Part shown: positions 11,079 through 62,055 of the stretch, piece after piece | How the letters are laid out: the number at the start of each line of letters is the position of its first letter | How positions within the stretch are numbered: position 1 is the first letter of the stretch | Assembly: GCA_009779935.1 (NCBI GenBank) | Contig: WRAX01000001.1 | Location: 37,758 to 101,757 of the forward strand | From: Defluviitaleaceae bacterium | GTDB taxonomy: Bacteria > Bacillota > Clostridia > Lachnospirales > WRAX01 | Length of the DNA stretch: 64,000 nt | Reading direction: 5' to 3' | Position numbers and translations under genes: made by a program | The notes under the pieces: generated by a model | Database searches by the model: none | What the model was told of the DNA's origin: nothing | What the model saw: the letters and a program-made list of their open reading frames with translations, nothing else

Positions 11079-11243
11079 CTACCTGCCGCCCATCATCATC
11101 ATAAGCATCAACATCATCATATTGTCACCACCAAAGGCATGTGGGTTCATCATCATCATAAGCATGAACATCATCATCATGTCATTGCCGCCCGGATGTG
11201 GGTGTGGCATGTGGTGGTGGGTGCCGCTAATTGGATTGCTCAT
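11079..11243 (-). CDS. 54-aa Met/His-rich peptide (MSNPISGTHHHMPHPHPGGNDMMMMFMLMMMMNPHAFGGDNMMMLMLMMMMGGR)
   Basis: AGGAGG lies 8 nt upstream of the ATG (11243-11241). The stop TAG is at 11081-11079. There is an internal two-fold repeat. It falls below the ORF-track size cutoff. Confidence 0.5.
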   Translation of the reverse strand: MSNPISGTHHHMPHPHPGGNDMMMMFMLMMMMNPHAFGGDNMMMLMLMMMMGGR

Positions 11244-11352: not shown

Positions 11353-12264
11353 CTACCTTGGTTTTATGGGCAACAGAAGGTCCAGTTGTTTTTCACCTGC
11401 GGGGATGTTTGGCGAGATAAAGTCCTCGTAATTCATCACCATCTCCTCCAACCATTGCCGGGCAAAGTCATTTTCATATTTTTCGCTTTGTGTGGACCAA
11501 TTGTACAAGGCCTCCCAACGCTCTCCAATTTCATTCATATTGGCGGAAACGCTGGCGAATAAGCCACCTGCAAAGCTTTTTTTAACAAAGGGGGCAGGCA
11601 CCACAAAATCATCGGGAATTGTCGTCCACAACTCGTAACCATATCGGGGGGATGACTGGCAGGGTTCGGGGTTATTAAATCCAAAACTGCGGTGGCCTGC
11701 ACGGGTGTGCAGCTTATGCTCCAATATAAACGGGTCAAAGATGGCAGAGCAGTCCATCTCCGGCGTTTCGCTTATTACATTGTGGGTGGCAAATGTCATG
11801 GCCGGCAATTCAACAATCCTCACATTTTTCAAGTTCTCCATGGTTATTATCCTTTCGGAGAGGTTAATTTTGGGGATGTCTTCATAAACGGTATCCGCCG
11901 CCGCCAAATGTTGCAGCATTTGGGTTAAATTTTGGCTTTGATGTATGCGCCCTATAATACTTTCCACAATATGGCTTAATGTAGCATACACGGCCGTTTT
12001 TTGCCGCAATTTTTCCAGATGGGAAGTTAGTATTTCAAGTGCCGTTTTTGGGTTATTTGCGGCAAAAATACGCTCGATATCCCCAATGGGCATTTTTAGC
12101 TTGCGCAGCAGCACAATATGCTGGATGCGTGCGGTGTTTTCTTCGTCATAATAACGATAGCCATTTTCTGCACGTTTGCTGGCAAGGATGCCGTTTTGCT
12201 CCCAATGGCGCAGGGTGCGGTTAGATATATTGTGCATTTTGGCAACTTCACCTATTCTAATCAT
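11353..12264 (-). CDS. MerR-family transcriptional regulator with a C-terminal GyrI-like/effector-binding domain
   Basis: MIRIGEVAKMHNISNRTLRHWE is the MerR helix-turn-helix. The start at 12264 follows GAGGAGGGG. The C-terminal ~150 aa resemble small-molecule-binding GyrI-like domains. Confidence 0.8.
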   Translation of the reverse strand: MIRIGEVAKMHNISNRTLRHWEQNGILASKRAENGYRYYDEENTARIQHIVLLRKLKMPIGDIERIFAANNPKTALEILTSHLEKLRQKTAVYATLSHIVESIIGRIHQSQNLTQMLQHLAAADTVYEDIPKINLSERIITMENLKNVRIVELPAMTFATHNVISETPEMDCSAIFDPFILEHKLHTRAGHRSFGFNNPEPCQSSPRYGYELWTTIPDDFVVPAPFVKKSFAGGLFASVSANMNEIGERWEALYNWSTQSEKYENDFARQWLEEMVMNYEDFISPNIPAGEKQLDLLLPIKPR

Positions 12265-12384
12265 GGCTTGCCCCTCCTCTCTATACACTATCATAAACCA
12301 TTACGCCGTGTTAAGGTCAATACCTTTTTGGGACGGGGCAAAAATGGCAGAACAAAAGCCAAAGGGCGGGGACAAGCCCCCGCC

Positions 12385-26111: not shown

Positions 26112-26605
26112 TTAGGATATATACTTTCGCATATTCTTTAACGCATTTTTCTCCAAACGGCTTACTTGTGCTTGGCTTATGCCTATTTCATCCGCCACCT
26201 CCATTTGGGTTTTGCCTTCAAAAAAGCGTAGGTTGATAATATGCCTTTCCCGCTCGCCCAGCCTTTTCATGGCTTCTGAAAGGGAGATGTTTTCCAGCCA
26301 CATGGCATCGGTATTTTTGTCATCACTTAGCTGGTCCATAACAAAAAGTGCATCTGTGCCGTCGTTATAAACGGGTTCGAAAAGTGATACGGGCTCCTGT
26401 ATGGCATCAAGGGCAAAAACCACTTCTTGCCGGGAAACGCCCAACTCCACAGCAATTTCTTCGATGGTGGGTTCTTTGCTGTTTTGGTTTATCAGCCGCT
26501 CCTTAGCTTGCAGGGCTTTGTAGGCAATGTCCCTTAAACTTCGGCTTACCCTGATGGAATTATTGTCCCTTAAATATCGCCTAATTTCACCTATTATCAT
26601 TGGTA
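26112..26605 (-). CDS. sigG: sigG 3' segment (regions 2.4-4 of sporulation sigma factor G), separated from its 5' segment
   Basis: PMIIGEIRRYLRDNNSIRVSRSLRDIAYKAL...GISQAQVSRLEK is near-identical to my recollection of B. subtilis SigG from residue ~100. The MAFI- start in the ORF track is element-derived. Confidence 0.85.
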
Positions 26606-26629
26606 TGAATGCCATTAGACGAAAAACTA

Positions 26630-28000
26630 TTATAGCCCTTCAAACTTATAAAACACTTCAACATTCTCATCATCAATCACAATTTTTTCCACACACGAGC
26701 GCACGATGTTGCGTTGCTCATGCTTTGTCATATACTCCCAAGTTTCTTCAAGGGTTTCCAATGTTTTTTTCACACTTTCAATTTTATCGGCAATCACATT
26801 GCGTTCCTGCTCCCTTGTAATTTGGGCTCCCATATTGGCAAGTTGCTTTTGCTGCTCTTTTATGGTGTTTATCAAAATTTCGTCACCATTGTCTGCATAA
26901 AGGTTGTACAGACGTTTAATTTTTTTGGCAACCTCATCATATCTACCCTGCAACACTTCCAGCACCGATTGGGTTGCAGCCCGCACATTGTCCACCTGCT
27001 TTTGTTTTATGGAAAAAGAGAATAAATCACTAATTATAACGCTTTCCACATCACTGGCCCACAGCCTTTTGTTGTTGCAATGGGGGTCTTTTACCAAATG
27101 GGGCTTGCTTGTATCTTGGGAATAGCATACGATTTTACAATCATGCTTGCCCCATTTTTGATAGCGCATTTTAGCCCCGCATTTACCACAAAGCATTAGC
27201 CCGGTAAACAGATAGTTGCTGTGGGTTGCACGGTTAATGGACCGCTCCGCCATATAATCCATGGCTTTTTGATAAACATCTAAGCTGATAAGCGGTTCGT
27301 GCTTGCCCAAAAACTCTTCATCATTATAAATTATGTAACCGGCGTTGGATTTGCGCTCCAAAATCTGTATGGCAAGCTTTTCGTATTTAAGCCCCAGGGT
27401 TTGGGCAATCTTGCCGGTGGAATAACCTTCCAAATACAGGTCATAAATTTTGCGCACTGTTTCCGCATCTTTATTTGGCACAAGTATGCCCTGCCCCTTA
27501 TCATAATCATAACCAAAGGGTATGCGGCCGCCGCCGGGCCAAAGCCCTGCTTTTACACGCTCTCTCATACCCATACGGGTGCGCTCTCTTATATTTTCCC
27601 GCTCCAATTGGGCAAATGCGGATAAAATGCCCAGCATAAGCCGCCCAAGGGGGGTAGATGTGTCCATACTTTCCTGCGTGGAAATGAAGTCCACGCCATG
27701 GGGGTTAAACACATCTTCAATCAAATACAATGTGTCCTTTTGGCTGCGGGAAAGCCTGTCCAATTTATAAACCAGCACCGTGCTGATGGTTTTATTTTTC
27801 ACATCAGCAATCATCCTTTGCAATTCCGGCCTATCCATATTGCTGCCGCTGTATCCGCCGTCAATATAATAATCAAAATCTTTAATACCCTTGGAAGCGC
27901 AGTGTCCTGCAAGCATCTGCTTTTGCGCTTCTATGGAGTAACCTTCCTCCCGCTGGGCATCTGTGGAAACCCTGATATAAATCGCTGCTTTGTGCTGCAT
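26630..28000 (-). CDS. Large serine recombinase (SpoIVCA/CcrB-like)
   Basis: 456 aa with AAIYIRVSTDAQ (catalytic Ser), a resolvase domain, a recombinase domain, a Cys-rich zinc ribbon (CGKCGAKM...C) and a coiled-coil. Confidence 0.92.
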   Translation of the reverse strand: MQHKAAIYIRVSTDAQREEGYSIEAQKQMLAGHCASKGIKDFDYYIDGGYSGSNMDRPELQRMIADVKNKTISTVLVYKLDRLSRSQKDTLYLIEDVFNPHGVDFISTQESMDTSTPLGRLMLGILSAFAQLERENIRERTRMGMRERVKAGLWPGGGRIPFGYDYDKGQGILVPNKDAETVRKIYDLYLEGYSTGKIAQTLGLKYEKLAIQILERKSNAGYIIYNDEEFLGKHEPLISLDVYQKAMDYMAERSINRATHSNYLFTGLMLCGKCGAKMRYQKWGKHDCKIVCYSQDTSKPHLVKDPHCNNKRLWASDVESVIISDLFSFSIKQKQVDNVRAATQSVLEVLQGRYDEVAKKIKRLYNLYADNGDEILINTIKEQQKQLANMGAQITREQERNVIADKIESVKKTLETLEETWEYMTKHEQRNIVRSCVEKIVIDDENVEVFYKFEGL

Positions 28001-28011
28001 AAAGCACCCCC

Positions 28012-28203
28012 TTAGCCATTAGCTTCATCATAACACAAAGTGGTGATGTTTTCAACGGCATTTTTTACCAATGTATCTTGGGGAGAAAGTCGCACATTAA
28101 CTGCTTGAATGGCTTCCAAAACCACATTGCTGTCCAGTATATATTTTTCCAAATCAGCCTTATTCACCTTTTTTCCATTAATGTATCTGGTTACACTTAG
28201 CAT
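28012..28203 (-). CDS. 63-aa hypothetical protein upstream of the recombinase
   Basis: The start at 28203 follows AAGGAG. Its stop lies 11 nt before the recombinase ATG. The longer ORF-track version lacks an RBS. Confidence 0.45.
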   Translation of the reverse strand: MLSVTRYINGKKVNKADLEKYILDSNVVLEAIQAVNVRLSPQDTLVKNAVENITTLCYDEANG

Positions 28204-28300
28204 GGCAACGCTCCTTTTTTGCATTGTTGCCATCAAATGCGGTGCGTAATCCCGGGTTACAAAAAACACCGTGTACATGCGCCACGGTGCCAAGGATATA

Positions 28301-28371
28301 CAGGGGTAGAGAGAATCGAACTCCCACTAAAGGTTTTGGAGACCTCTGTCATGCCACTTGACCATACCCCT
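28301..28371 (-). tRNA. tRNA-Trp (anticodon CCA)
   Basis: The reverse complement AGGGGTATGGTCAAGTGGCATGACAGAGGTCTCCAAAACCTTTAGTGGGAGTTCGATTCTCTCTACCCCTG folds as a cloverleaf. It has a 7-bp acceptor stem, the anticodon loop CUCCAAA and the T-loop TTCGATT. No CCA end is encoded. Confidence 0.9.
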
Positions 28372-28414
28372 AAATAAGATGCAGGGCGCACAATGTGCGC
28401 CGCTACAACCAATA

Positions 28415-28488
28415 TGCTGGTACCGAGATTCGAACTCGGGAGCCTCTCCCTTACCAAGGGAGCGCTCTACCTACTGAGCTATACCAGC
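28415..28488 (-). tRNA. tRNA-Thr (anticodon GGT)
   Basis: The reverse complement GCTGGTATAGCTCAGTAGGTAGAGCGCTCCCTTGGTAAGGGAGAGGCTCCCGAGTTCGAATCTCGGTACCAGCA folds as a canonical cloverleaf with the anticodon loop TTGGTAA. Confidence 0.92.
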
Positions 28489-28554
28489 AAATATTTCAAC
28501 AAAAGATATTCTACCACGCCAAAGGGCATTTGTCAACAAAAATTTTTGGGAAAT

Positions 28555-29112
28555 TTATATTTGGGGACAGGAAGGGTTTGACAGCTTTTTTATCAGGTCA
28601 TCATGGGTGGTTAAGTTGATTTGGGTGCCTTTGGCTGCGGTTAGGTTGCAGTGTTTTAACCAATCACGCCATTTTTGTATACCAAACATGGTGGATATGG
28701 TTTGCCACGATGGTGTGCCTTGTGTCCTTACGGCATTGTGTTGCCGTGCTGATGGGGGGCGGTTTTTTATGTAGTCGTCTATAAATTGCGCTTGCCAGTG
28801 CTCCTTGGTTTGATGGGAGTAAGGGCGGGAAGGGGATGGTTGGTTTTGGGGGTAGTGTTTTTCCAAAAAGTCTTTTAAGTTTATTCCAAAGCGCAGTTTT
28901 ATGACGGTGTGGGGCGGCAAGGTTTTTTTCTTAAATTCTGCTGTGCGCGGCGGGCGGCCATTGTCTATGATAAACTGATTTATGGTATCGAAGATGGTTT
29001 GCTCGCTCCAGCCCATAAAGGGCATGTGGTCAAGGATTTCTTGTATTTTTTCTTTTGTGCCTTGGTCTGTCACCACATCCAATGCTGCCTGTAAGGCTTG
29101 TTTTCGTGTCAT
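28555..29112 (-). CDS. Hypothetical protein with two homing-endonuclease-associated-repeat-like (HEARO-like) modules
   Basis: 185 aa. It has two repeats of the pattern W..Q.I...I..F....GR.P...EF......P....I...FG....W/FL. AGGAGG lies 7 nt upstream, directly after the premature stop of the sigG 5' fragment. Confidence 0.5.
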   Translation of the reverse strand: MTRKQALQAALDVVTDQGTKEKIQEILDHMPFMGWSEQTIFDTINQFIIDNGRPPRTAEFKKKTLPPHTVIKLRFGINLKDFLEKHYPQNQPSPSRPYSHQTKEHWQAQFIDDYIKNRPPSARQHNAVRTQGTPSWQTISTMFGIQKWRDWLKHCNLTAAKGTQINLTTHDDLIKKLSNPSCPQI

Positions 29113-29149
29113 TTAGCATCCTCCTATTATCAATTTCGCTTAATGACAT

Positions 29150-29450
29150 TCATTGGTACAGCATATGTGGAAAATTTTACGCCATGGCTGGTGTCAAAAT
29201 TGTCTATAGCTTTAATAAGGCCAATGCAGCCCACTTGGAATATATCATCAATATTTTCGCCACGGTTGTTGAAGCGTTGGATAACGCTAAGTACAAGGCG
29301 CAGGTTGCCGTATATATATTCCCTGCGGGCATGTTTACAGCCCTGCAAAATCTTTGCAAAAAGTATATCTTTTTCCGCTTGTTTTAGAATAGGAAGTTTG
29401 GCAGTGTTTACGCCGCAAATTTCCACCTTGGTGCGCTGTGTGCCGCTCAT
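29150..29450 (-). CDS. sigG: sigG 5' segment (regions 1.2-2.3). As it stands, the ORF runs 6 codons into the element and stops at 29130.
   Basis: MSGTQRTKVEICGVNTAKLPILK...GNLRLVLSVIQRFNNRGENIDDIFQVGCIGLIKAIDNFDTSHGVKFSTYAVPM matches the SigG N-terminal ~100 aa. Confidence 0.85.
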
Positions 29451-29513: not shown

Positions 29514-29579
29514 CAGCAAAATATTCCAATCTATTCCAAAGCCAAGCAAAAAGGGACGGTTAATGCCCGCCCCTGTATA

Positions 29580-30203
29580 TTATGGTGTTATGGTTAAAAT
29601 GCCGCCGCAATGGGAAATTTGCCGGTATGCCCAGCTAAATTGCCCAAGTTTGGGGGTTAGGGTTTCGGTTACCAAGTAAAACTCGTCATCATCCCATTCG
29701 TCGCCACTTTCTGTGCGGCAGGTGTTTTGGGCTTCTTCTGTTTCAAAGGCAATATCGCCGATGATAATTTGCCCGCCCGGGGCAAGCAGTTTTGCCGCAT
29801 CTTGTATTAGATTGATTTTTGCAGCATCATCCAAGTGATGCATGGCGTAGGTGGATATTATAAAGTCAAATTGCAGCCCTTCCAATATTTTTGGCAGGCC
29901 TTTTGTAAAGTCATGTTTAATTAAGGTGGTTTGGGGTATTTTGGATGCGGTTATTGCCAGCATTTCCTCAGAAAAATCTATACCCGTTACTTTGTTGCCG
30001 CCATCTTCTAATTTGGATGCCAAAACCCCTGTGCCAATGCCAATATCAAGCACATTGCAAGGGCTTTTTAACATGATGGTGGTGTAGATTTGTGCCAAAA
30101 TATCTTTATAGCCTGCAAATGGATATTTACCATCATCATCTGTAAGATTTACATCGGCATCATATCCATTTGCCCATAGGTCAAACCCTTTTTCTCCTAA
30201 CAT
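29580..30203 (-). CDS. Class I SAM-dependent methyltransferase
   Basis: VLDIGIGTGVLA motif I. 207 aa. Confidence 0.8.
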   Translation of the reverse strand: MLGEKGFDLWANGYDADVNLTDDDGKYPFAGYKDILAQIYTTIMLKSPCNVLDIGIGTGVLASKLEDGGNKVTGIDFSEEMLAITASKIPQTTLIKHDFTKGLPKILEGLQFDFIISTYAMHHLDDAAKINLIQDAAKLLAPGGQIIIGDIAFETEEAQNTCRTESGDEWDDDEFYLVTETLTPKLGQFSWAYRQISHCGGILTITP

Positions 30204-30251
30204 AATTCCTCTTTCCTCAAAGCCCCACGGAGCTTAGCAGCCACCCGGCCC

Positions 30252-30476
30252 TCACCCATCAGTATTTTTGGGTTCTAAGGCTCTAAAACCGATGTCATTA
30301 ATCTCGTTTTGGATTTCTTTTAGGGATACAACGGCCGGGTCAAATTCCACGGTTACTTTGTTGTTTCTGGTGTTGGCGGTGGCTTCTACCACGCCAAGGT
30401 CTTTTAGTGCGTTCACGACGCTTTGTTCGCAACGGCCTCAAGACATACCTATAACATCAAATGTAATTTTTTGCAT
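30252..30476 (-). CDS. CopZ-like heavy-metal-associated (HMA) domain protein with an in-frame TGA at the first Cys of the metal-binding motif (GMS-U/stop-GRC)
   Basis: MQKITFDVIGMS[TGA]GRCEQSVVNALKDLGVVEATANTRNNKVTVEFDPAVVSLKEIQNEINDIGFRALEPKNTDG. The TGA is at 30440-30438. The same frame stays open to TGA at 30254-30252. The RBS is GAAAGGA. Confidence 0.6.
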
Positions 30477-30507
30477 AATAACCATCCTTTCGTGTGTTTG
30501 TGGGTTT

Positions 30508-30536
30508 AGTATACCACAGCCCACAGGGGTTGGCAA
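30508..30536 (-). promoter_or_regulatory. Promoter of the CopZ-like gene (TTGCCA-17-TATACT) with a CsoR-operator-like spacer
   Basis: -35 at 30536-30531 and -10 at 30513-30508. The spacer ACCCCTGTGGGCTGTGG resembles the csoR promoter spacer TACCCATAGGGGGTATGG. Confidence 0.5.
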
Positions 30537-33464: not shown

Positions 33465-33845
33465 TTATTTTTTGTCACGTTCTACAAAGCGGTCGTACAC
33501 CCTTCCCAGCAATGTTGTGACAACAATCGTTGCCAAAGCTATTGTTGCAGGTTGTACAAGCGACCTAAGTGCATATGAGTAAAGGATGACCACGTCCCAC
33601 AACCCGGCTTCGCCCGGGATTTCCATATCCGCCATAGGGAATACGCCAAAAACAACTATAAAAGCAGTCACTCCAAAGAAAACAGCAGAGAACCTTATGG
33701 CTCTACGTACAAATATCCTCCCATTGCTTGCATCAATCTTTTCTCGGGCTTGCAATCTTGCGTCAAGGTCTTTGTCCCAATCCTTATTGCCAACGTCCGC
33801 CTGTATCTCCTTAATACTTTTTGTATTAATCCTCTTCCTGCTCAT
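33465..33845 (-). CDS. Small two-TM membrane protein, candidate toxin partner of the upstream Panacea-domain gene
   Basis: 126 aa with two hydrophobic helices. Its start overlaps the upstream gene by 20 nt. Confidence 0.45.
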   Translation of the reverse strand: MSRKRINTKSIKEIQADVGNKDWDKDLDARLQAREKIDASNGRIFVRRAIRFSAVFFGVTAFIVVFGVFPMADMEIPGEAGLWDVVILYSYALRSLVQPATIALATIVVTTLLGRVYDRFVERDKK

Positions 33846-34266
33846 CCACTAAAATCCTCTCAAAATCTGATCTTATTGCTTTGTCATCCATTGTGCCCAG
33901 CATTTTTTTGCTCCATTGCTTTTCCCAAGCCCCGCCAAGCATATGCGTCCAAAGCACAAGTTCGCTTGCTTTCCAATCTCCAAAATTATCCAGTGTTTCA
34001 TCCACAATATGTTCTAATTCTGAAAAATCTTCAAGTGGAAGACCTTCCAAATTATTGCTTGACTTTTGCTTTTCGTATACATCAACAAAAACGGGCCCAT
34101 ATTGCCACGCTTTGGGTTTTTCATTAAAAAGCCGTTTTTCATAAGCGGCGAGATAAAATCCGTAGCAAACATATAGCCATTTCTGAATCTGGGTCACATT
34201 TGGGTCGAGCCCTCTTTCGAGCGCCCTATGCCGAAGATACACCGCAAAATCAACACTATTAACCAT
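33826..34266 (-). CDS. DUF4065 (Panacea/SocA-like) domain protein, candidate antitoxin
   Basis: VTQIQKWLYVCYGFYLAAYEKRLFNEKPKAWQYGPVFVDVYEK matches the DUF4065 core pattern. The start at 34266 follows AAGGGGGGG. Confidence 0.7.
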   Translation of the reverse strand: MVNSVDFAVYLRHRALERGLDPNVTQIQKWLYVCYGFYLAAYEKRLFNEKPKAWQYGPVFVDVYEKQKSSNNLEGLPLEDFSELEHIVDETLDNFGDWKASELVLWTHMLGGAWEKQWSKKMLGTMDDKAIRSDFERILVDEQEED

Positions 34267-34460
34267 GGATTTATCCCCCCCTTTTCTTTTTTCGACAAAA
34301 AAGCCATTTCCTTCTAACATTATAATACCACAAATCCAATTTCCGGGCAAGTCCTATTTTCTTCATACACATCACCCCCTATACATAAATTATGCTCAAA
34401 TCCCCCAAAACAAAACAAAGACCCGTTAGGCACAGGTCTTTGTTATAACATTATATCACA

Positions 34461-47773: not shown

Positions 47774-50254
47774 TTATTGCAACTTAACCCGCCGCAAACG
47801 CAAGGCATTTAACAGCACAGAAATGGACGAAAATGTCATGGCAATAGCAGCTATCATGGGGTCCAGCAGCGGGCCGCCCGCCAAAAACCACAAGCCCATT
47901 GCAATTGGAATGCAAAGCACATTGTAAAAGAATGCCCAAAACAGGTTTTGCTTGATATTGGTGATGGTTTTGCGGCTTAGTGTAATAGCAGAAACCACGC
48001 TGGACAAATCACCCCGCATAAGCACAATATCAGCGGATTCGATTGCAACATCCGTGCCTTGCCCAATGGCAATGCCCACATCGGCTTGGGCAAGGGCGGG
48101 GGCGTCATTAATACCGTCGCCTACCATGGCAACCTTTTTGCCGTCTGTTTGCAGCTTTTTGATGGTATCCGCTTTATCGGCAGGTAGCACCTCTGCCAGC
48201 ACTTGTGTTATGCCTGCTTGTTTCGCCACCGCTTCGGCGGTTTTTTTGTTGTCGCCTGTTAGCATAATAACTTCTATGCCCATGGCCTGCATCTTTTCCA
48301 CAGCGGCCTTGCTGTCGGCTTTAATAACATCTGCCACAGCAATAATTGCCGCCATTTTCCCGTCAACAGCCATATACATGGGGGTTTTGCCTTCTTCTGC
48401 CAAGGTTTGGGCGTGGTCCACTGCCCACCCAGTGATATTATTTTCGGACATTAGCCGTTGGTTGCCTATAAGTAGGGCTTTGCCATCAATTTCGGCCTTA
48501 ATGCCTTGGCCTGTTATGGCGGTAAAGCCGGTTGGTTCAGTTAGGACAAGCTCCCGCTTCAAAGCTTCGGCAACAATGGCTTCACCCAAAGGATGTTCGG
48601 ACTTTTTTTCGGCAGATGCGGCAAGGCGCAGTATTTCTGCGATATTATAAGCCTCGTCTGCCACGATATCGGTAACATGGGGCTTGCCCACAGTAATCGT
48701 GCCTGTTTTATCCAAAACCACCGTCTGGATTTTATAGGCAGTTTCCAAAGATTCTCCGGATTTGATAAGTACACCGTTTTCGGCCCCCTTGCCCGTACCC
48801 ACCATAATGGATGTAGGTGTGGCAAGCCCCAAGGCGCATGGGCAAGCAACAATCAAAATAGCTATAAAAATGCGCATGGCAAACCAAATTGTGCTGGGCT
48901 CACCTGCTGCATTGGTTGCAATAAAATCCCCGCCAAAAATTGCCCAACCCGCAAGGCTTAAAATGGCTATAATGATAATGGCAGGCACAAACTTTTCGCT
49001 TATGGCATCCGCAAGGGCGGCAATTGGGGCTTTGCTGCCCTGCGCCTGCTCCACCAATTTAATTATTTGGGACAGGGCAGTGTCACGCCCAACCTTGGTG
49101 GCACGATATTTTATGGATCCGTTTTTGTTGATACTTGCGCCAATTACAGCATCACCAACAGCCTTGCCAACAGGCATGGATTCCCCTGTAAGCATGGATT
49201 CGTCCACACTGGTTTCGCCTTCGGTTACAATGCCATCCACGGGCATTTTCTCCCCCGGGCGCACGATGATGATATCGCCCACGGCAACCTCATCAATATA
49301 AACCTCCACTTCCTCGCCATTGCGGATGATTTTGGCGGTTTTTGGGGCAAGCCCCATTAGCTTTTTAATGGCTTCACCGGTTTTGCCTTTGGCAATACTT
49401 TCCATATACTTGCCCATAACGATAAGGGTTAAAATCACACCTACAATCTCAAAAAACGGCTCGTAATTGGCGGCAAAGAAGATATTGGCAAAGGTTAGGT
49501 ACAAGCTGTAAACAAACGCCGCCGCTGTACCCTTAGCGATTAGCGAATCCATATTGGGGCTGCGCTTAACAAATAGGGCATTAAATCCACGTGTATAAAT
49601 TTTCCAATTTACAATTACCACGGGCAGGGTTAGTGCCAGTTGGATTATGGTGTTTTGCCAAGCAAATTCATGTAAAATCCAATGGTGTAACTGCGGCCGC
49701 CCAAAAAGGTGCAGGGCATGGGGTCCCATGGCAATCAAAAACAAGGGTAGGGTAAAAATTGCAGATATTATCAGCCTTTTGCGCAGGGCAAGGGTTTCTT
49801 GTTGTTTACGGGCGGCTTCCACATCCACACTTTCTTCTTCCAAAAGCTCAAAGCCGGCCTTTTTTGCAGCTTTTATCACATCCACCACCGAAACCTCGGT
49901 CATATTATAGGTAAGATGCAGTTTTTCGGCGGCAAAGTTTACGCTTGCTTCCGTAACACCATTAAGCCGCTTAACTGTGCGCTCCAATGCGCCCGAGCAG
50001 GCTGCGCATGTCATACCCCCCACCTTAAAAATACGGGTGCCTGATGGTATTTCCAAGCCAAAGCCGGCTTTTTTTGCAGCGGCTATCACTTCATCCAAGC
50101 TTATAACATCCTTATCAAAAGTTAGGGACAGTTTTTCCGTGGCAAAGTTTACGCTGGCTTGCAAAACCCCTTCTTTGCGGCCCAGGGTGCGTTCCAATGC
50201 GCCAGAGCAGGCTGCGCATGTCATACCTGATATATTTAGTAACATGGTTTCCAT
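47774..50254 (-). CDS. copA: Copper-translocating P-type ATPase with two N-terminal HMA domains
   Basis: Two copies of [13 protein letters not shown], the CPC motif ([11 protein letters not shown]), DKTGT and GDGINDAP. Confidence 0.97.
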
Positions 50255-56412: not shown

Positions 56413-58269
56413 TTATTCGTCGTCTTTCTTTTCTTCATACTCCCCTTCAAATGTGCCGTCATCATTTACATTGCCTGTTTCCGCTTCTGCACCCTGCGCT
56501 GCTTCGGCGGCGGCTTGGTATACCTTTGCGGCAACTTCGTGCATAACTTTTGTTAGGGCTTCAATTTCCACCTTTAACTTATCTGCATCGTCTTTTGTCA
56601 TTCCATCGGCAACCATGCCTTCGTTGATGGATTTTAGGCTTTCCAATGCTGTATTTAACGCTTCTTTGTCCTCTTCTGTAATAACTTCCGGGTTATCGCT
56701 CATCAGCTTTTCGGTTTGGAATATTATGCTGTCCGCTTCGTTTTTGGTATCAACAATTTCTTTGCGGGCACGGTCCGCTTCTTCAAATTGGGCGGCTTCG
56801 TCCACAGCTTTTTTAATATCCTCATCACTCATCTTAGATGAAGCTGTTATGGTTATTTTCTGCTCCTTACCCGTACCCAAATCTTTGGCGGCAACATTTA
56901 CAATGCCGTTGGCATCAATGTTAAAGCTAACCTCTATTTGTGGCACGCCACGTGGGGCGGGCAAAATACCATCTAAGCGGAATTGGCCAAGCACTTTATT
57001 ATCCCTTGCAAATTGGCGTTCGCCTTGCACAATTACAATGTCCACAGCTGTTTGGTTGTCCGCCGCCGTAGAAAACACTTGGCTGTGGGTTTTGGGGATG
57101 GATGTGTTGCGTTCGATAAGCTTGGTTGCTACGCCGCCAAGGGTTTCAATACCCAGGGACAATGGTGTTACATCAACCAAAATCAAATCCTTCAAAGCAT
57201 CATCACCGGACAGCTTGCCGCCTTGTATTGCAGCACCAATTGCAACACATTCGTCGGGGTTAATGCCCTTAAACGGCTCATGCCCTGTAATATTTTTAAC
57301 AGCATCTTGGATTGCAGGGATGCGTGTGCTGCCACCCACCAACAATACACGGGTAAGCCCGGATGCGGAAATGCCTGCATCTTTCAAGGCTGTGTGTACT
57401 GGCTCTATGGTCTGTTTCACCAAATCGTCACTTAACTCGTTAAACTTGGCACGGGTAAGCTTTACATCAAGGTGCTTTGGGCCATCCTGGTTTGCCGTGA
57501 TAAATGGAATGTTAATATCCGTCTGGGTAACAGTGGAAAGTTCCTTTTTGGCCTTTTCCGCTTCCACTTTAATGCGCTGCATGGCGGCCTTATCTTTGCT
57601 AAGGTCAATGCCCTCGGTGTTTTTGAACTCCTTCACCAAAAAGTCAATTATGCGCTCATCAAAATCATCACCGCCAAGGTGGTTTACGCCGTTGGTGGAT
57701 AAAACCTCCACCACCCCATCACCAATATCGATAACAGACACGTCAAATGTGCCGCCGCCAAGGTCATAAACAAGTATTTTTTCGCTTTTTTCTGTATCCA
57801 AGCCATAGGCCAGGGAAGCGGATGTGGGCTCGTTTATAATGCGCTTTACATCAAAGCCGGCAATACGCCCGGCATCCACGGTGGCTTGCCGCTCGTCATC
57901 ACCAAAATAGGCGGGTACGGTAATAACGGCCTCTGTCACTTCTCCGCCTAAATAGGCTTCCGCATCTGCTTTAAGCTTTTGCAAAATCATGGCAGATACT
58001 TCCTGCGGGTTGTATTGTTTGCCTTCGATTGTAATTTTCTCTTTTGTACCCATCAAACGCTTAATGGACATAACTGTGTTTTCGGGGTTTGTAATGGCTT
58101 GGCGTTTAGCCGCCTCGCCTACCAAACGCTCGCCGCCCTTGGTAAAGCCCACGATGGATGGGGTTGTGCGCCCACCCTCGCTGTTAGGGATAACAACGGG
58201 CTTTCCGCCCTCCATAACCGCTACACATGAATTTGTTGTTCCTAAATCAATTCCGATAATTTTTGACAT
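56413..58269 (-). CDS. dnaK: Molecular chaperone DnaK
   Basis: [28 protein letters not shown]. 618 aa. Confidence 0.98.
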
Positions 58270-58283
58270 ATTTTTTCTTCCTC

Positions 58284-58478
58284 CTAAATCTTTTCTTTTA
58301 TTCCTGCTAATTTTAAGTATTCATTGGCACTATGCCTATTTTCGATTTTTCCATCAATAGCGAATCTCTTGCCCGTTATTGGGCTGAACCAAATCTCATG
58401 GTCACCCTTACCATGGCGCACAAATTGACAGCCTTTATTTAATAGCAAATTCTTGACTCTGCGTGTATAATTTGCCAT
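58284..58478 (-). CDS. hicA: HicA-family toxin (second copy in the window)
   Basis: 64 aa with [22 protein letters not shown] (HicA-like GxH..W core). Its stop lies 14 nt before the dnaK ATG. Confidence 0.65.
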
Positions 58479-58701
58479 CGTCCAGCCCTTTCAAAACATC
58501 CATTCGTTCGGTTTCAAATATCAGTTGCACAGGCCCTGTGTATTGGTAACTTAACTCAAACATCTCCCTCACAGCCATGCGAACCCGCTCCACCAAAGCG
58601 TCAAAAGAGCCTGATTCCAGCGTCAAGCCAAATTTTTCATCATCAATGGAGCTGTACCAGATTCCATTATCCCAAATCATTTTAACTTTGCAAGTTCTCA
58701 T
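58435..58701 (-). CDS. DUF1902-domain protein (HicB-like antitoxin N-terminal domain)
   Basis: 88 aa. IWDNGIWYSSIDDEKFGLTLESGSFDALVERV fits the DUF1902 pattern. It overlaps the hicA start by 44 nt. Confidence 0.55.
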   Translation of the reverse strand: MRTCKVKMIWDNGIWYSSIDDEKFGLTLESGSFDALVERVRMAVREMFELSYQYTGPVQLIFETERMDVLKGLDDGKLYTQSQEFAIK

Positions 58702-58713
58702 GGGGTTACCTCC

Positions 58714-58914
58714 TTATTTCCGCTCAAAATAGTCATAAAAGCAATTTCTGTCGATATAGGCGGTATATTTAGAAAAAGGGACGGCAACATCCGCTCTTTT
58801 ACCACAAAAAATTCTTATTTCATTATCCTTTTCAGAAGCTACATAGTATTCCATTCCTTTTATGAAATGGATGCCATGGTCTTGCACATTCTCTGTACAT
58901 ATCACTTTATCCAT
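58714..58914 (-). CDS. 66-aa hypothetical protein
   Basis: ORF only. It lies between grpE and the HicA/DUF1902 pair. Confidence 0.35.
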   Translation of the reverse strand: MDKVICTENVQDHGIHFIKGMEYYVASEKDNEIRIFCGKRADVAVPFSKYTAYIDRNCFYDYFERK

Positions 58915-58941
58915 ATTTGCCTCCTATTTTAATTTGCATCA

Positions 58942-59445
58942 TTAATTGGCAACCACCACCACCGAATGTCGGATAACCGCACCTTTGTAGATATAGCCCG
59001 TTTGCAATTCTTCGGCAATTTCCTGCGTGCCAAGGTTTTCATCCTCAATGGTACTGACCGCATTATGAAATTTCGTATTAAAGGTTTCGCCAACGGCAAG
59101 GATTTTTGTGATGCCCATATTTTCAAACATGCTGTTTAGTTGGCTTTGTATCATCAACACACCTTTGACAAAGTTATCACCATGGTCGGCATTTTTGGTG
59201 GCAAGGGCAAAATTGTCCATTATGGGCAAAAGCTCTGTGGCAAAGGCCATTATGCCCCTATCATACATGCCTGCCTTTTCTTTTTCGCTTCGCTTGCGGT
59301 AATTTTCATAATCCGCCGCTGTCTGCTTTAATTTATTTACCAGTGCCGCCACAAAATCCTCTGTCTGCACCGCATCATCCTGCTCTTGCATTGCTTCTTC
59401 TTCTAAAACGGATTGTTGCTCGTTTTCAATATTTTCGTTGTCCAT
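58942..59445 (-). CDS. grpE: Nucleotide exchange factor GrpE
   Basis: The start at 59445 (MDNENIENEQQ...) follows GGAGGA. The GrpE core is YENYRKRSEKE...GYIYKGAVIRHSVVVVA. Confidence 0.92.
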   Translation of the reverse strand: MDNENIENEQQSVLEEEAMQEQDDAVQTEDFVAALVNKLKQTAADYENYRKRSEKEKAGMYDRGIMAFATELLPIMDNFALATKNADHGDNFVKGVLMIQSQLNSMFENMGITKILAVGETFNTKFHNAVSTIEDENLGTQEIAEELQTGYIYKGAVIRHSVVVVAN

Positions 59446-59459
59446 TGTACTGTCCTCCA

Positions 59460-60482
59460 TTATTTCAGCCCAAGGGTTGTTAGTGCCGTCTGCAAAACCG
59501 ATATTACCTGTGTATAATCCATCCTTGTGGGTCCGATAATTGCAATATTGCCGCAAAAATGCTGGTCTATGCTAATTTTAGCACGGATTATGGAGCAATC
59601 CCGCAAAACAGCATCATCGTTTTCCTCACCGATGGTGATTTGTATGCTGTCCCCACTTCCCGAAAGCAAAGCCAGCAAACCGTCCTTTTCTTCCAAAACA
59701 CCCATGATGGCACGGGCTTTTTCCAAATCGGCAAATTCGGGATATTCCAGCAGGTTTTTAATGCCTATGGCATGCACCTGCTCCGGTTCATCCATATCCA
59801 AAGCTTTGCAAACCGCCTGCAAAAGGGCATCTGCTGTTGCCGCATCCAAGCCGGCTTGGGCAAATTGGTGGCGCATCATAGAAATATATAGGGGGTTGCC
59901 CAAATCATCCACACTTGTCCCGCCAAGCCCACGTAATAGGGTGGCAGAAATTTTTGATACCATAGATGGGCTTGCAGGCACAGGCAAAACCACGGTGGCA
60001 TTTTTAACTTCGTTTTGCACTGTAACAATAACCATGGCAACCACTGCCCCATCCACGGGGATAAGTTGCACATGTTTGACAACATGCCGCTTTGCCATTT
60101 TTTGGGTGGCAATGGTGGTATAATTGGTTACATAGGCTATGGCCTTGGCCATTTCCTGCATCAGCCCTTCCATGCGCCCCATTTCTGCTTGTAAGGCTTG
60201 CACAATAAGGTTTTGCTGCTCCTGCGTTAGGCGGCCACGCTTCATCACTTGGTCCACATACAGGCGATAGCCTTTGTCAGAAGGGATGCGGCCGGAAGAT
60301 GCGTGGGGGGCAACCACATAACCCATCTCCTCCAAATCACTCATCTCATTACGAATGGTGGCGGAGCTTAGCCCGAAATCATATTTTTTGGCTATGGTGC
60401 GGGAGGCTATCGGCTCGGCAGAGGCTATATAATCCTTTATAATGGCTGCCAAAATTTTCACTTTTCTGTCATTTAAGCCCAT
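59460..60482 (-). CDS. hrcA: Heat-inducible transcription repressor HrcA
   Basis: The start at 60482 (MGLNDRKVKILAAIIKDYI...) is used because the ORF-track start lies inside CIRCE. 340 aa. Confidence 0.93.
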   Translation of the reverse strand: MGLNDRKVKILAAIIKDYIASAEPIASRTIAKKYDFGLSSATIRNEMSDLEEMGYVVAPHASSGRIPSDKGYRLYVDQVMKRGRLTQEQQNLIVQALQAEMGRMEGLMQEMAKAIAYVTNYTTIATQKMAKRHVVKHVQLIPVDGAVVAMVIVTVQNEVKNATVVLPVPASPSMVSKISATLLRGLGGTSVDDLGNPLYISMMRHQFAQAGLDAATADALLQAVCKALDMDEPEQVHAIGIKNLLEYPEFADLEKARAIMGVLEEKDGLLALLSGSGDSIQITIGEENDDAVLRDCSIIRAKISIDQHFCGNIAIIGPTRMDYTQVISVLQTALTTLGLK

Positions 60483-60510
60483 TAAATCACCCCTGACTAA
60501 TAAATCATTG

Positions 60511-60537
60511 TTAGCAGTCATGTATGACGAGTGCTAA
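60511..60537. promoter_or_regulatory. CIRCE operator (TTAGCACTC-N9-GACTGCTAA)
   Basis: The forward strand reads ttagcagtc-atgtatgac-gagtgctaa, with 1 mismatch to the consensus inverted repeat. It sits between the promoter and hrcA. Confidence 0.9.
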
Positions 60538-60545
60538 CAATGGAT

Positions 60546-60574
60546 ATGATACCATGAACCAAGACCTTTGTCAA
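60546..60574 (-). promoter_or_regulatory. Sigma-A promoter of the hrcA operon (TTGACA-17-TATCAT)
   Basis: -35 at 60574-60569 and -10 at 60551-60546. Confidence 0.7.
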
Positions 60575-60594
60575 GAAAAATTTTATAAAAAATT

Positions 60595-60626
60595 AAGGCG
60601 TTTTGACTTGGTGGTCAAAACGCCTT
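60595..60626 (-). terminator. Rho-independent terminator after murA
   Basis: aaggcgttttgac / gtcaaaacgcctt 13-bp stem. The T-run on the minus strand is the complement of 60586-60592. Confidence 0.85.
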
Positions 60627-60635
60627 AATTATAGC

Positions 60636-61925: not shown

Positions 61926-62055
61926 GGCAAACACGTCCTAAACAATTATTGCCCCACGCAAAAAACATCATAAACAGCGTAGGATAAGTTATTATACCAC
62001 CCCACATCCATTAAATCAACACAAAATTTTCTCATTTAATAAAGTTAATAAAAAG

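What the first reader, a model, noticed from the sequence alone, without database searches (positions are those of the whole stretch)
30252..30476. CopZ-like metallochaperone with TGA exactly at the first Cys of the CxxC motif: selenocysteine or nonsense mutation
The 74-codon frame reads MQKITFDVIGMS-TGA-GRCEQSV... and continues as a complete ferredoxin-like HMA domain to a terminal TGA. In HMA domains the motif is GM(T/S)CxxC, and copA in this same window has GMTCAACSG twice. The TGA (30440-30438) replaces the first metal-ligating Cys, giving U-x-x-C. That position is typical for Sec/Cys pairs in redox or metal-binding selenoproteins.

By eye I see only weak stem-loops downstream: GCGU-CGUGA-ACGC starting 17 nt after the UGA, and a stronger GGCGUGG/CCACCGCC about 43 nt after it. 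I therefore cannot confirm a bacterial SECIS. A TGC/TGT to TGA point mutation (pseudogene) remains equally possible.
Basis: partly seen in the sequence, partly recalled or inferred. Interest (0 to 1): 0.65.

Follow-up and report, generated by a model that had tools for sequence, protein, structure and literature searches.

The report
Two-selenocysteine CopZ-like metal-binding protein
The in-frame TGA is almost certainly a real selenocysteine codon, not a mutation, and the supposed stop TGA is a second one, so this is an unannotated 80-residue, two-selenocysteine copper-chaperone-like protein found so far only in Defluviitaleaceae MAGs and related metagenome contigs (termite-gut origin inferred from MAG names).

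Summary
The sequence is as described: window 30476-30252 (-) reads MQKITFDVIGMS-TGA-GRCEQ…NTDG-TGA and is an HMA/CopZ fold.

Nine distinct relatives (39-92% aa identity) were recovered. All eight that keep the CxxC site have TGA at the first Cys codon and none has TGC/TGT, so the pseudogene reading is rejected.

The "terminal" TGA is very probably a second Sec codon:
- The frame continues G-P-G-G-C-TAA, with the true stop at 30236-30234.
- Relatives keep an in-frame tail that pairs the Sec with a Cys or another TGA.
- One relative has Cys (TGT) at that codon.

Every family UGA is followed 17-33 nt later by a small hairpin, nearly all with a C-GU-N loop. The tail hairpin shows compensatory changes in all 6 stem pairs. 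The first hairpin has elevated silent-site conservation. The isolated hairpins are weaker than the published bSECIS energy threshold.

TGA is an ordinary stop elsewhere in the window. The same contig carries a formate dehydrogenase with a canonical Sec codon (CARL-TGA-H), so this organism decodes Sec, although selA/B/C/D were not seen.

The gene forms a two-gene unit with a SAM methyltransferase. NCBI annotates only a 54-aa fragment. It matches no curated selenoprotein model. Function is inferred, not shown.

The parts
30508..30536 (-). Promoter-like site: TTGCCA, 17 nt spacer, TATACT, with a TG extension
   Evidence: Consensus scan, 10 of 12 matches. L036 and L037 have similar TGnTATACT / TGTTATAAT motifs upstream. 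This is a consensus match only.
30485..30490 (-). Shine-Dalgarno AAAGGA, 8 nt upstream of the ATG
   Evidence: Read directly from the sequence. Every family member has a GGAGG-like site 6-9 nt before its first codon, which places the translation start upstream of UGA1.
30234..30476 (-). Full CDS of the two-Sec HMA protein (80 aa): MQKITFDVIGMS-U-GRCEQSVVNALKDLGVVEATANTRNNKVTVEFDPAVVSLKEIQNEINDIGFRALEPKNTDG-U-GPGGC, stop TAA 30236-30234
30438..30440 (-). UGA1, Sec13, at the first ligand of the GM-x-C-x-x-C metal site (U-G-R-C)
   Evidence: TGA in 9 of 9 distinct CxxC-bearing members and TGY in none. Cys at this position in CopZ relatives P0019, P0031, P0281 and others.
30409..30421 (-). Hairpin 1 (putative SECIS for UGA1): GCGU-CGUGA-ACGC, loop starting 20 nt after the UGA
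   Evidence: Recovered by RNAalifold. One GC to AU compensatory change in L003, and L006 gains a fifth pair. Silent-site identity is 0.87 in the stem codons against 0.50 in the rest of the gene. It is absent in L007, which lacks UGA1. Hairpin dG is only -2.5 kcal/mol.
30252..30254 (-). UGA2, Sec75, previously taken as the stop codon
   Evidence: TGA in 9 of 10 members and TGT (Cys) in L006. An in-frame tail follows in all members.
30237..30251 (-). Tail codons G-P-G-G-C after Sec75. Cys80 (TGC, 30239-30237) is the last residue.
   Evidence: In 7 of 10 members the tail is U/C-x(3-6)-C-stop, with third-position variation in the G-P codons. L036 has C-x-x-U-G-stop. L004 and L029 have U-x7-U-xxx-stop. 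pLDDT is below 50, suggesting a flexible arm.
30220..30235 (-). Hairpin 2 (putative SECIS for UGA2): AAGCUC-CGUG-GGGCUU. It overlaps the TAA stop, and its loop starts 22 nt after UGA2.
   Evidence: 95% of cells paired, 6 of 6 stem pairs with double compensatory changes, covariation score 0.81 against 0.36 shuffled (0 of 500 shuffles), loop C-G-U invariant. Not terminator-like. dG is -4.9 kcal/mol.
29580..30203 (-). Co-transcribed class I SAM-dependent methyltransferase (207 aa), with its ATG 30 nt after the TAA
   Evidence: Pfam Methyltransf_25/11/23/31/12, and TehB at 26.6 bits. Orthologues directly follow the HMA-Sec gene in L036 and L037 even though the upstream contexts differ. No terminator lies between the two genes.
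29552..29574 (-). Intrinsic-terminator-like hairpin with a T-run, ending the two-gene unit

Best explanation
Window 30476..30234 (-) encodes a genuine 80-residue selenoprotein with two selenocysteines. It has an HMA (CopZ-like, beta-alpha-beta-beta-alpha-beta) domain whose metal site is U13-G-R-C16. A flexible C-terminal arm follows, ending U75-G-P-G-G-C80.

Both UGAs are read as Sec by the organism's SelB/tRNA-Sec system. Each UGA is followed about 20-22 nt later by a small hairpin with a C-GU-N apical loop. The second hairpin straddles the true TAA stop.

The gene is transcribed from its own promoter together with a SAM-dependent methyltransferase.

Inferred function: a carrier for a thiophilic metal or metalloid. 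The selenolate/thiolate pair in the HMA loop binds the ligand. The mobile U...C arm captures it or hands it on to a partner, in this operon probably the methyltransferase. This would be analogous to the C-terminal Cys pair plus NmerA domain of MerA, or the GCUG arm of thioredoxin reductase.

Shown: the conserved TGAs, the fold, the conserved hairpins, Sec use on the same contig, and the operon layout. Inferred: actual Sec insertion, the ligand, the role of the arm, and the link to methylation. The confidence given applies to 'genuine two-Sec selenoprotein'. The functional part alone rates about 0.3.
For: (1) TGA at the first CxxC Cys codon in 9 of 9 distinct members at 39-92% aa identity, from independent JGI, ENA and NCBI assemblies. 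Cys is found there in ordinary CopZ relatives.

(2) Second TGA in 9 of 10 members and TGT (Cys) in L006. The in-frame tail always supplies a partner: U-x3-6-C-stop, C-x-x-U-G-stop, or U-x7-U-xxx-stop. The G-P codons vary at third positions. P0005/L007 lost both HMA-site ligands (T..D) but kept the U...C tail.

(3) Hairpin 2: 95% of cells paired, 6 of 6 pairs with compensatory double changes, 0 of 500 shuffles as high, slid controls at or below 49% paired. Hairpin 1: conserved, one compensatory change, silent-site identity 0.87 against 0.50, and absent where UGA1 is absent.

(4) All family UGAs have a hairpin with a 3-5 nt loop (two use a 9-nt loop under the filter), a 4-8 bp stem and 17-33 nt spacing. 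The UGA1 and most UGA2/UGA3 hairpins have G-U in the first loop positions. This fits three of the four bSECIS constraints quoted in PMC13188914.

(5) TGA is a normal stop in 7 of 48 window genes.

(6) The window lies on ENA contig k141_1983930 (12,488 nt overlap, 0 mismatches). The same contig has an FDH split at ...SVDVCARL-TGA-HSTTV, followed by a -8.1 kcal/mol hairpin at spacing 22.

(7) HMA fold: Pfam, PDB sequence hits, AF2 model pLDDT 82 with tail below 50, Foldseek to CopZ/HMA7/MerP.

(8) Promoter, no internal terminator, and a terminator after the methyltransferase. The methyltransferase linkage recurs in L036 and L037.
Against: - No selA, selB, selC or selD was seen. There is no tRNA-Sec in the window or in any fetched locus, and none among the roughly 40 window ORFs scanned.
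- The isolated hairpins are weak (-1.1 to -6.1 kcal/mol) and fail the -7.5 kcal/mol bSECIS criterion.
- Hairpin 1 shows little variation, so its covariation statistics are weak: 78 of 500 shuffles reach the observed score.
- UGA2 of L004 and L029 has an atypical loop (UYUGA).
- Hairpin 2 persists in L006, where the codon is Cys, so it could have another role.
- The spacing in L003 and L007 is long (30-33 nt).
- No Rfam match.
- No expression or protein data exist.
- The function is inference only. The methyltransferase is linked in just 3 of 10 members, and its substrate is unknown.
Confidence: 0.85

Rival explanations
1. UGA1 is Sec, but UGA2 is the real stop, giving a 74-residue protein. Hairpin 2 would then be an intercistronic RNA element, for example mRNA stabilisation, processing, or translational coupling to the methyltransferase, rather than a SECIS.
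For: Hairpin 2 is retained in L006, where the codon is TGT. The hairpin energies are weak. Spacing varies from 19 to 33 nt. UGA2 in L004 and L029 needs a different, atypical hairpin.
Against: - The tail after UGA2 stays in frame in all members and always ends at or contains a Cys or another TGA next to the stop.
- The G-P codons vary only at third positions.
- L006 has Cys in place of UGA2, so the tail is unambiguously coding there.
- L036 rearranged its tail yet kept C-x-x-U.
- P0005/L007 lost the HMA ligands but kept the tail.
Confidence: 0.08
2. Pseudogene or sequencing error: a TGC/TGT to TGA point mutation inactivated an ordinary copZ.
For: NCBI's pipeline calls only a 54-aa 'hypothetical protein' (MCL2854052.1). 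No sel genes were seen in the window.
Against: - The same TGA occurs in 9 distinct homologues down to about 44% aa identity, with no frameshifts or other stops.
- The N-terminal beta-strand, the GM motif and the RBS are intact in all members.
- The sequence is identical in independent JGI and ENA assemblies.
- Silent-site constraint surrounds the TGA.
Confidence: 0.02
3. UGA is decoded as a standard amino acid (Trp, Gly or Cys) through a reassigned code or efficient near-cognate read-through, not as Sec.
For: An ENA gene call (P0002) shows W at both TGAs.
Against: - That W is a code-4 gene-caller choice on a 1.9-kb contig.
- In the window TGA ends 7 of 48 genes, and long ORFs are intact under code 11.
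- The TGAs sit exactly at Cys positions.
- The same contig has the canonical FDH Sec site.
Confidence: 0.03

Closest known systems
NF041115 'UxxU metal-binding (seleno)protein' (listed as 'putative mercuric reductase', UxxU, 2 Sec, in PMC13188914 and PMC9312934)
   Same: A small stand-alone HMA-type protein with Sec in the GM-x-C-x-x-C metal loop, and two Sec per protein.
   Different: In that family both Sec lie in the loop (UxxU), whereas here the loop is UxxC and the second Sec is in a C-terminal tail. The window protein scores 50 bits against a cutoff of 95, and other members score 20-47. The window's ordinary CopA N-terminus scores higher on the model (88 bits), so the hit is generic HMA similarity.
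[quoted passage not shown]
   Same: Sec replaces the first Cys of the HMA CxxC motif (UxxC).
   Different: That Sec lies in the N-terminal domain of a large membrane pump. Here the protein is an 80-aa soluble protein with an extra Sec-containing tail. The CopA in this window uses Cys.
CopZ / Atx1 / MerP Cys-type metallochaperones (for example PDB 6ff2, 2qif, 1osd)
   Same: Same fold (TM 0.78-0.93, rmsd 0.9-1.4 A), same size and same ligand positions.
   Different: Those proteins have Cys-Cys ligands, no C-terminal chalcogen arm, and 24-37% identity. The window protein is below the CopZ model cutoffs (58.9 against 91 bits).
MbdU, 'metal-binding double selenoprotein' (NF045648; Haft & Tolstoy 2025, as listed in PMC13188914)
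   Same: By name, a metal-binding protein with two Sec. It is listed beside a methyltransferase-domain selenoprotein (MduS), and the gene here is followed by a methyltransferase.
   Different: The review gives its Sec motif as 'CU', and no family member here has a CU dipeptide. None of five members hit NF045648 even at E<=10. The defining paper could not be read, so identity or relatedness cannot be fully excluded.
C-terminal Sec 'star' families (UXX-star, KCU-star) and swinging-arm redox/metal tails (thioredoxin reductase GCUG; MerA C-terminal Cys pair with NmerA). The mechanistic details of the second group are from my own knowledge.
   Same: Sec lies within a few residues of the C-terminus, so the SECIS must extend past the stop codon. 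A flexible chalcogen pair could shuttle a ligand to or from a fixed site.
   Different: No sequence relationship. The tail motif here (D-G-U-G-P-x-x-C) and its fusion to an HMA domain were not found in the lists consulted.

Membership tests
HMA domain (PF00403) / ferredoxin-like metallochaperone fold | Profile match above the Pfam gathering score | tested here: met
   50.5 bits against 24.8, E 2.7e-13.
HMA domain (PF00403) / ferredoxin-like metallochaperone fold | beta-alpha-beta-beta-alpha-beta fold with the metal loop between beta1 and alpha1 | tested here: met
   AF2 model elements E2-9, H14-27, E31-35, E40-45, H52-62, E65-67; pLDDT 82. Foldseek TM 0.79-0.93 to CopZ, HMA7 and MerP.
HMA domain (PF00403) / ferredoxin-like metallochaperone fold | GM-x-C-x-x-C ligand motif | tested here: met
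   The motif reads GMS-U-GR-C, with Sec in place of the first Cys. One paralogue (L007) has lost it: GLT-T-AR-D.
Bacterial selenoprotein (SelB/SECIS-dependent UGA recoding) | In-frame UGA conserved among homologues and aligned with Cys in other homologues | tested here: met
   UGA1 in 9 of 9 members, with Cys in CopZ relatives. UGA2 in 9 of 10 members, with Cys in L006.
Bacterial selenoprotein (SelB/SECIS-dependent UGA recoding) | bSECIS: loop 3-9 nt, stem 4-16 bp, G in the first two loop positions, 16-37 nt from the UGA, MFE <= -7.5 kcal/mol (PMC13188914, Fig. 2 legend) | tested here: inconclusive
   The loop, stem and spacing criteria are met for all family UGAs, but hairpin dG is only -1.1 to -6.1 kcal/mol. 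UGA2 of L004 and L029 has an atypical loop. Covariation is strong for hairpin 2 and weak for hairpin 1.
Bacterial selenoprotein (SelB/SECIS-dependent UGA recoding) | The genome encodes selA, selB, selC (tRNA-Sec) and selD | not testable with these tools
   None were found in the window or in the fetched flanks, and the rest of the MAG could not be read. Indirect support comes from the canonical Sec-FDH (CARL-TGA-H) on the same contig.
Bacterial selenoprotein (SelB/SECIS-dependent UGA recoding) | Selenium is actually incorporated in the protein | not testable with these tools
   Requires 75Se labelling or mass spectrometry.
NF041115 UxxU metal-binding (seleno)protein | Score at or above the curated cutoff (95 bits), and a UxxU/CxxC loop as the only Sec site | tested here: not met
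   Scores of 20-50 bits. The loop is UxxC and there is an extra tail Sec.
NF045648 MbdU metal-binding double selenoprotein | Profile match, and the 'CU' Sec motif listed in PMC13188914 | tested here: not met
   No hit at E<=10 for five members, and no CU dipeptide in any member. Caveat: I could not verify that the model is in the library, nor read the defining paper.
CopZ (NF033795 / NF033794) | Score at or above the curated cutoff (91 / 95 bits) | tested here: not met
   58.9 and 44.7 bits.

The most novel reading that the evidence does not exclude
This is a previously undescribed selenoprotein family: HMA domain plus a C-terminal D-G-U-G-P-x-x-C selenolate arm, with two or even three Sec in about 80 residues. 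In it the mobile arm, not the classical CxxC site, is the conserved functional core, because the arm survives in a paralogue that lost the CxxC site. Under this reading it serves as a dedicated carrier that presents a metalloid or soft metal (Se, Te, As or Hg) to its co-transcribed SAM methyltransferase, or, in the paralogue beside moeA/FDH genes, takes part in Mo/W-cofactor or selenium trafficking.
Probability: 0.25. Interest if true: 0.7.

Novelty: new variant of a known kind. Interest (0 to 1): 0.55.

Why it matters
- It corrects an annotation. A 54-aa 'hypothetical protein' in several public MAGs is really an 80-aa protein with two selenocysteines.
- It adds a distinct variant to the short list of HMA-type selenoproteins. 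The variant is a stand-alone UxxC chaperone-like domain fused to a C-terminal Sec/Cys arm, with the second recoding hairpin lying across the stop codon.
- It shows that very small hairpins (4-7 bp, C-GU-N loop) recur after every UGA of the family. This is useful for tuning SECIS predictors for Clostridia.
- The recurrent pairing with a methyltransferase gives a testable lead to selenium-dependent metal or metalloid handling in gut anaerobes.

Tried and rejected
- The first genome scan used a peptide pattern containing the Cys I had substituted for Sec, so it could not match TGA and found nothing. A hand-made IUPAC pattern then worked, but its strictness may understate how widely the family is distributed.
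- Rfam found nothing relevant, either at gathering thresholds or in the sensitive mode.
- A scan for other TGA-split ORFs found no other selenoprotein candidate in the window.
- ORFs whose sizes suggested selB/selD/selA (56413-61934) are dnaK, hrcA and murA.
- A 54-aa gene next to gyrA/merR, suspected to be a second copy, is an unrelated Met/His-rich peptide.
- Two look-ups of window-end proteins failed, probably because of start-codon differences. The 10-kb left flank holds no sel genes.
- MAFFT misregistered the two loop sizes of hairpin 2. I re-aligned with an N placeholder in the 4-nt loops.
- The paper defining MbdU could not be obtained.

Full report
**1. The observation**

Window 30476..30252 on the minus strand translates as MQKITFDVIGMS*GRCEQSVVNALKDLGVVEATANTRNNKVTVEFDPAVVSLKEIQNEINDIGFRALEPKNTDG*. 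The internal TGA is at 30440-30438, and an AAAGGA Shine-Dalgarno lies 8 nt before the ATG.

With Cys in place of the TGA, the protein matches Pfam HMA (50.5 bits, cutoff 24.8). It also matches PDB CopZ/CopA/ATP7B metal-binding domains. An AlphaFold2 model of the 72%-identical homologue P0002 has the beta-alpha-beta-beta-alpha-beta fold (pLDDT 82) and superposes on CopZ, HMA7 and MerP at TM 0.79-0.93.

The window's copA (47774..50254, -) does carry GMTCAACSG twice.

**2. Is the TGA conserved?**

A protein search found an 80-aa ENA gene call, P0002, that is 72% identical. It has 'W' at the TGA position and again at the terminal TGA. Its DNA (L001) has TGA at both places, so the W is a code-4 gene-caller artefact.

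An exhaustive HMMER search with P0002 returned several short hits that begin just after the Sec codon. Their DNA, plus hits from a degenerate DNA pattern scanned over the genome and metagenome collections, and two further look-ups, gave ten distinct DNA sequences: window, L001, L014, L003, L004, L029, L006, L007, L036 and L037.

Amino-acid identity among eight of them ranges from 39 to 92%, and nucleotide identity from 51 to 83%.
- All nine that retain the CxxC site have TGA at the first Cys codon. None has TGC or TGT.
- The tenth (L007/P0005) has T..D there.
- Ordinary CopZ-like relatives have Cys at that position (P0019, P0031, P0281 and others).
- Every member has an RBS before the first codon and an intact beta1/GM segment upstream of the TGA.

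A nonsense mutation or a sequencing error is therefore excluded.

**3. The 'stop' TGA is a second Sec codon**

After ...DG-TGA the frame continues as follows:

| Member | Tail after ...DG |
|---|---|
| window | U-G-P-G-G-C-TAA |
| L001, L014, L037 | U-G-P-D-G-C-TAG |
| L003 | U-D-P-F-G-N-N-C-TAA |
| L007 | U-G-P-G-G-I-N-C-TAG |
| L006 | C-G-P-D-C-TAA (codon is TGT) |
| L036 | rearranged: ...T-C-D-S-U-G-TAA |
| L004, L029 | U-G-P-(D/E)-(A/S)-S-L-L-TGA-A-(N/D)-K-stop |

In L006 the tail is unambiguously coding. In L004 and L029 a third in-frame TGA sits where the others have the terminal Cys.

The G-P codons differ only at third positions. A Sec with a nearby Cys or Sec partner is therefore the invariant feature. 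It is kept even in L007, which has lost both HMA-site ligands.

The window CDS is thus 30476..30234, encoding 80 residues with Sec13 and Sec75. The last roughly 9 residues are modelled with pLDDT below 50, consistent with a flexible arm.

**4. RNA signals**

*UGA1.* The 13-nt hairpin GCGU-CGUGA-ACGC (30421-30409) is present in all UGA1-bearing members.
- RNAalifold recovers it.
- L003 has a compensatory GC to AU change plus a UA to UG change.
- L006 changes both sides of the C.A mismatch to a G-C pair, giving GCGUG-GUU-CACGC.
- L004 and L029 extend the stem to 7 bp.
- L007, which lacks UGA1, has no such hairpin.
- Silent-site identity among members is 0.87 in the four stem codons and 0.71 over codons +1..+10. 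It is 0.50 for the rest of the gene, with a maximum of 0.63 for any 10-codon window there. It collapses immediately 3' of the stem: 7 of 28 and 5 of 36 identical pairs at the next two codons.
- With so little variation the covariation statistics are weak: 78 of 500 shuffles reach the observed score.

*UGA2.* A hairpin that overlaps or directly follows the true stop codon is present in every member. Examples are window AAGCUC-CGUG-GGGCUU at 30235-30220, L001 AGUCC-CGUG-GGACU, L014 AGUUC-CGUG-GAACU, L003 AUGUUUC-GUU-GAAACAU, L007 ACAUUC-CGUGA-GAAUGU and L004/L029 ACAUUCC-GUU-GGAAUG.
- On a register-corrected alignment, 95% of cells pair.
- All six stem pairs show double compensatory changes.
- The covariation score is 0.81 against 0.36 for shuffles (0 of 500 reach it), and slid controls pair at 49% or less.
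- The loop C-G-U is invariant.
- It is not a terminator. In the window no T-run follows it, and the methyltransferase RBS and ATG follow within 17 nt.

*Comparison with the published bSECIS model.* The criteria are a loop of 3-9 nt, a stem of 4-16 bp, G in the first two loop positions (N1-G-[G|U]-N-N2), 16-37 nt between UGA and loop, and MFE <= -7.5 kcal/mol (PMC13188914).
- Every family UGA has a hairpin meeting the first three criteria. Spacing is 20-21 nt for UGA1, 19-22 nt for most UGA2, 30-33 nt in L003 and L007, and 18-19 nt for UGA3.
- The isolated hairpins have only -1.1 to -6.1 kcal/mol.
- UGA2 of L004 and L029 uses a different hairpin with a UYUGA loop, which passes the loop rule only if read as a 4-bp stem with a 9-nt loop.
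- The FDH on the same contig has a -8.1 kcal/mol hairpin at spacing 22.
- From my own knowledge, an apical G-U about 23-24 nt from the U of UGA is the SelB-binding determinant in E. coli fdhF. Here the G-U lies at positions 25-28 for UGA1 and for most UGA2.

**5. Can this organism decode Sec?**

- TGA terminates 7 of 48 window genes, so the code is standard.
- No tRNA-Sec or sel gene is in the window or in the fetched loci.
- The window is part of ENA contig ERZ27257297:k141_1983930 (176,805 bp): 12,488 nt overlap with 0 mismatches.
- About 100 kb away, the same contig carries a formate dehydrogenase called as two ORFs of 347 and 559 aa. They are joined by ...SVDVCARL-TGA-HSTTV, the canonical FDH Sec site.
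- The contig carrying paralogue P0005 has the same arrangement (CARL-TGA-HATSV).
- Sec decoding in this genome is therefore strongly implied, although the machinery itself was not seen.

**6. Source, distribution and annotation**

The window comes from a Defluviitaleaceae bacterium MAG with locus tags FWE21_. NCBI annotates only the 54-aa C-terminal fragment, as 'hypothetical protein' MCL2854052.1.

Among 5.8 billion non-redundant proteins the family has 11 entries (one search listed 12, but P0281 is an ordinary Cys-type CopZ). Every entry that carries a source name is a Defluviitaleaceae MAG. All are unnamed, and nearly all are truncated at a TGA. Termite-gut origin is my reading of the MAG isolate names (Lab288P1bin92, Co191P1bin84) and was not checked against sample metadata. 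Among one genome per GTDB species, only two Defluviitaleaceae MAGs matched the strict tail pattern.

**7. Context**

A sigma-70-like promoter (30536-30508) precedes the gene. No terminator separates it from the 207-aa class I SAM methyltransferase (30203..29580). A terminator follows that gene at 29574-29552.

Orthologous methyltransferases directly follow the gene in L036 and L037, although their upstream genes differ. The other members stand alone: after gyrA in L001 and L014, and after rpsT in L004.

The methyltransferase matches only generic families (Methyltransf_25 and similar), with a TehB match at 26.6 bits. Its substrate is unknown.

**8. Comparison with known families**

The 2026 review of prokaryotic selenoproteins (PMC13188914) and the 2022 review (PMC9312934) list three relevant entries:
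- an HMA-type 'metal-binding protein' with UxxU (NF041115);
- a heavy-metal P-type ATPase with UxxC in its HMA domain;

The family here is below the NF041115 cutoff: 20-50 bits against 95, while the window's Cys-type CopA scores 88. It gives no hit to NF045648 and has no CU dipeptide. It is also below the CopZ cutoffs.

The paper defining MbdU could not be read, so that comparison rests on the HMM scan and on the motif given in the review. Sec in an HMA loop, and C-terminal 'star' Sec residues, are both known kinds. The combination seen here was not found in the lists consulted. That combination is a stand-alone UxxC HMA domain, a D-G-U-G-P-x-x-C arm, a second hairpin across the stop codon, and an occasional third Sec.

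**9. Verdict**

This is a real, unannotated selenoprotein gene with two Sec codons (confidence about 0.85). It is a new variant within the known kind of HMA selenoproteins.

The proposed mechanism is a selenolate/thiolate metal site plus a mobile Sec/Cys arm acting as a soft-metal or metalloid carrier, possibly feeding the co-transcribed methyltransferase. This is inference (about 0.3).

Interest is moderate. It is a clean annotation correction, a narrowly distributed new double-Sec family, and a useful set of mini-SECIS examples, but it is not a new principle.

Noticed in passing
window 26597..29158 (-); sigG halves at 29450..29151 and 26615..26112: The forespore sigma factor gene sigG is split by a roughly 2.55-kb element. 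The joined halves score 465.8 bits on NF006071 SigG (cutoff 372). The element carries a large serine recombinase (26630..28000), a 185-aa ORF with no family match (28555..29112), and tRNA-Trp and tRNA-Thr (28300-28489). It is flanked by a 9-bp direct repeat, TACCAATGA (29158-29150 and 26605-26597). The same arrangement appears in an independent JGI contig (L002). To my recollection (not checked), known sporulation-gene intervening elements sit in mother-cell genes such as sigK, spsM and gerE. In one literature search, the papers on intervening elements did not mention sigG.
   Followed up: partly
window 11079..11243 (-): A 54-aa Met/His-rich ORF (MSNPISGTHHHMPHPHPGGNDMMMMFMLMMMMNPHAFGGDNMMMLMLMMMMGGR) lies directly downstream of a MerR+Cass2 regulator (11353..12294) and gyrA, and is followed by a long inverted repeat. 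It is called as a gene in the ENA assembly and has no Pfam match. Its composition suggests a Cu(I)/soft-metal-binding peptide under MerR-type control.
   Followed up: partly
L033 1410-4160 (same ENA contig as the window, about 100 kb away); TGA at 2451-2453: A formate dehydrogenase is called as two ORFs (347 + 559 aa) joined by ...SVDVCARL-TGA-HSTTV, followed by a CUGCAC-UGAUA-GUGCAG hairpin (-8.1 kcal/mol). This is a canonical Sec-FDH misannotated as two proteins. Most of its closest homologues in the database are likewise truncated at about 346-364 aa.
   Followed up: yes
L007 5001-5249 (also L008, L009, L020): Paralogue P0005 has lost both HMA metal ligands (GLT-T-AR-D) but keeps DG-TGA-GPGGINC-TAG and the tail hairpin. 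It sits between two moeA genes, an ABC transporter and DUF6273 on one side and a Sec-FDH on the other. This hints that the tail, not the CxxC site, is the conserved functional element, and at a possible link to Mo/W-cofactor enzymes.
   Followed up: partly
L004 5162-5200; L029 (minus strand) tail region: In this subclade the tail reads U-GP(D/E)(A/S)SLL-TGA-A(N/D)K-stop. A third in-frame TGA replaces the terminal Cys. It lies in the loop of the hairpin that follows UGA2 and is itself followed by the conserved ACAUUCC-GUU-GGAAUG hairpin at spacing 18-19 nt. These may be three-Sec proteins of about 86 residues.
   Followed up: partly
L006 525-555: The one member with Cys (TGT) instead of UGA2 still has the start of the tail hairpin (AACAUUCC-GUU-G...; the contig ends there) at the same spacing. 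Either this is a recent Sec-to-Cys change, or the hairpin has a role beyond Sec insertion.
   Followed up: no
window 33826..34350 (-): A 174-aa ORF has a SocA/Panacea antitoxin domain (PF13274, 39.9 bits). It may be part of a toxin-antitoxin pair near the locus. The neighbouring small ORF at 33465..33845 was not examined.
   Followed up: no
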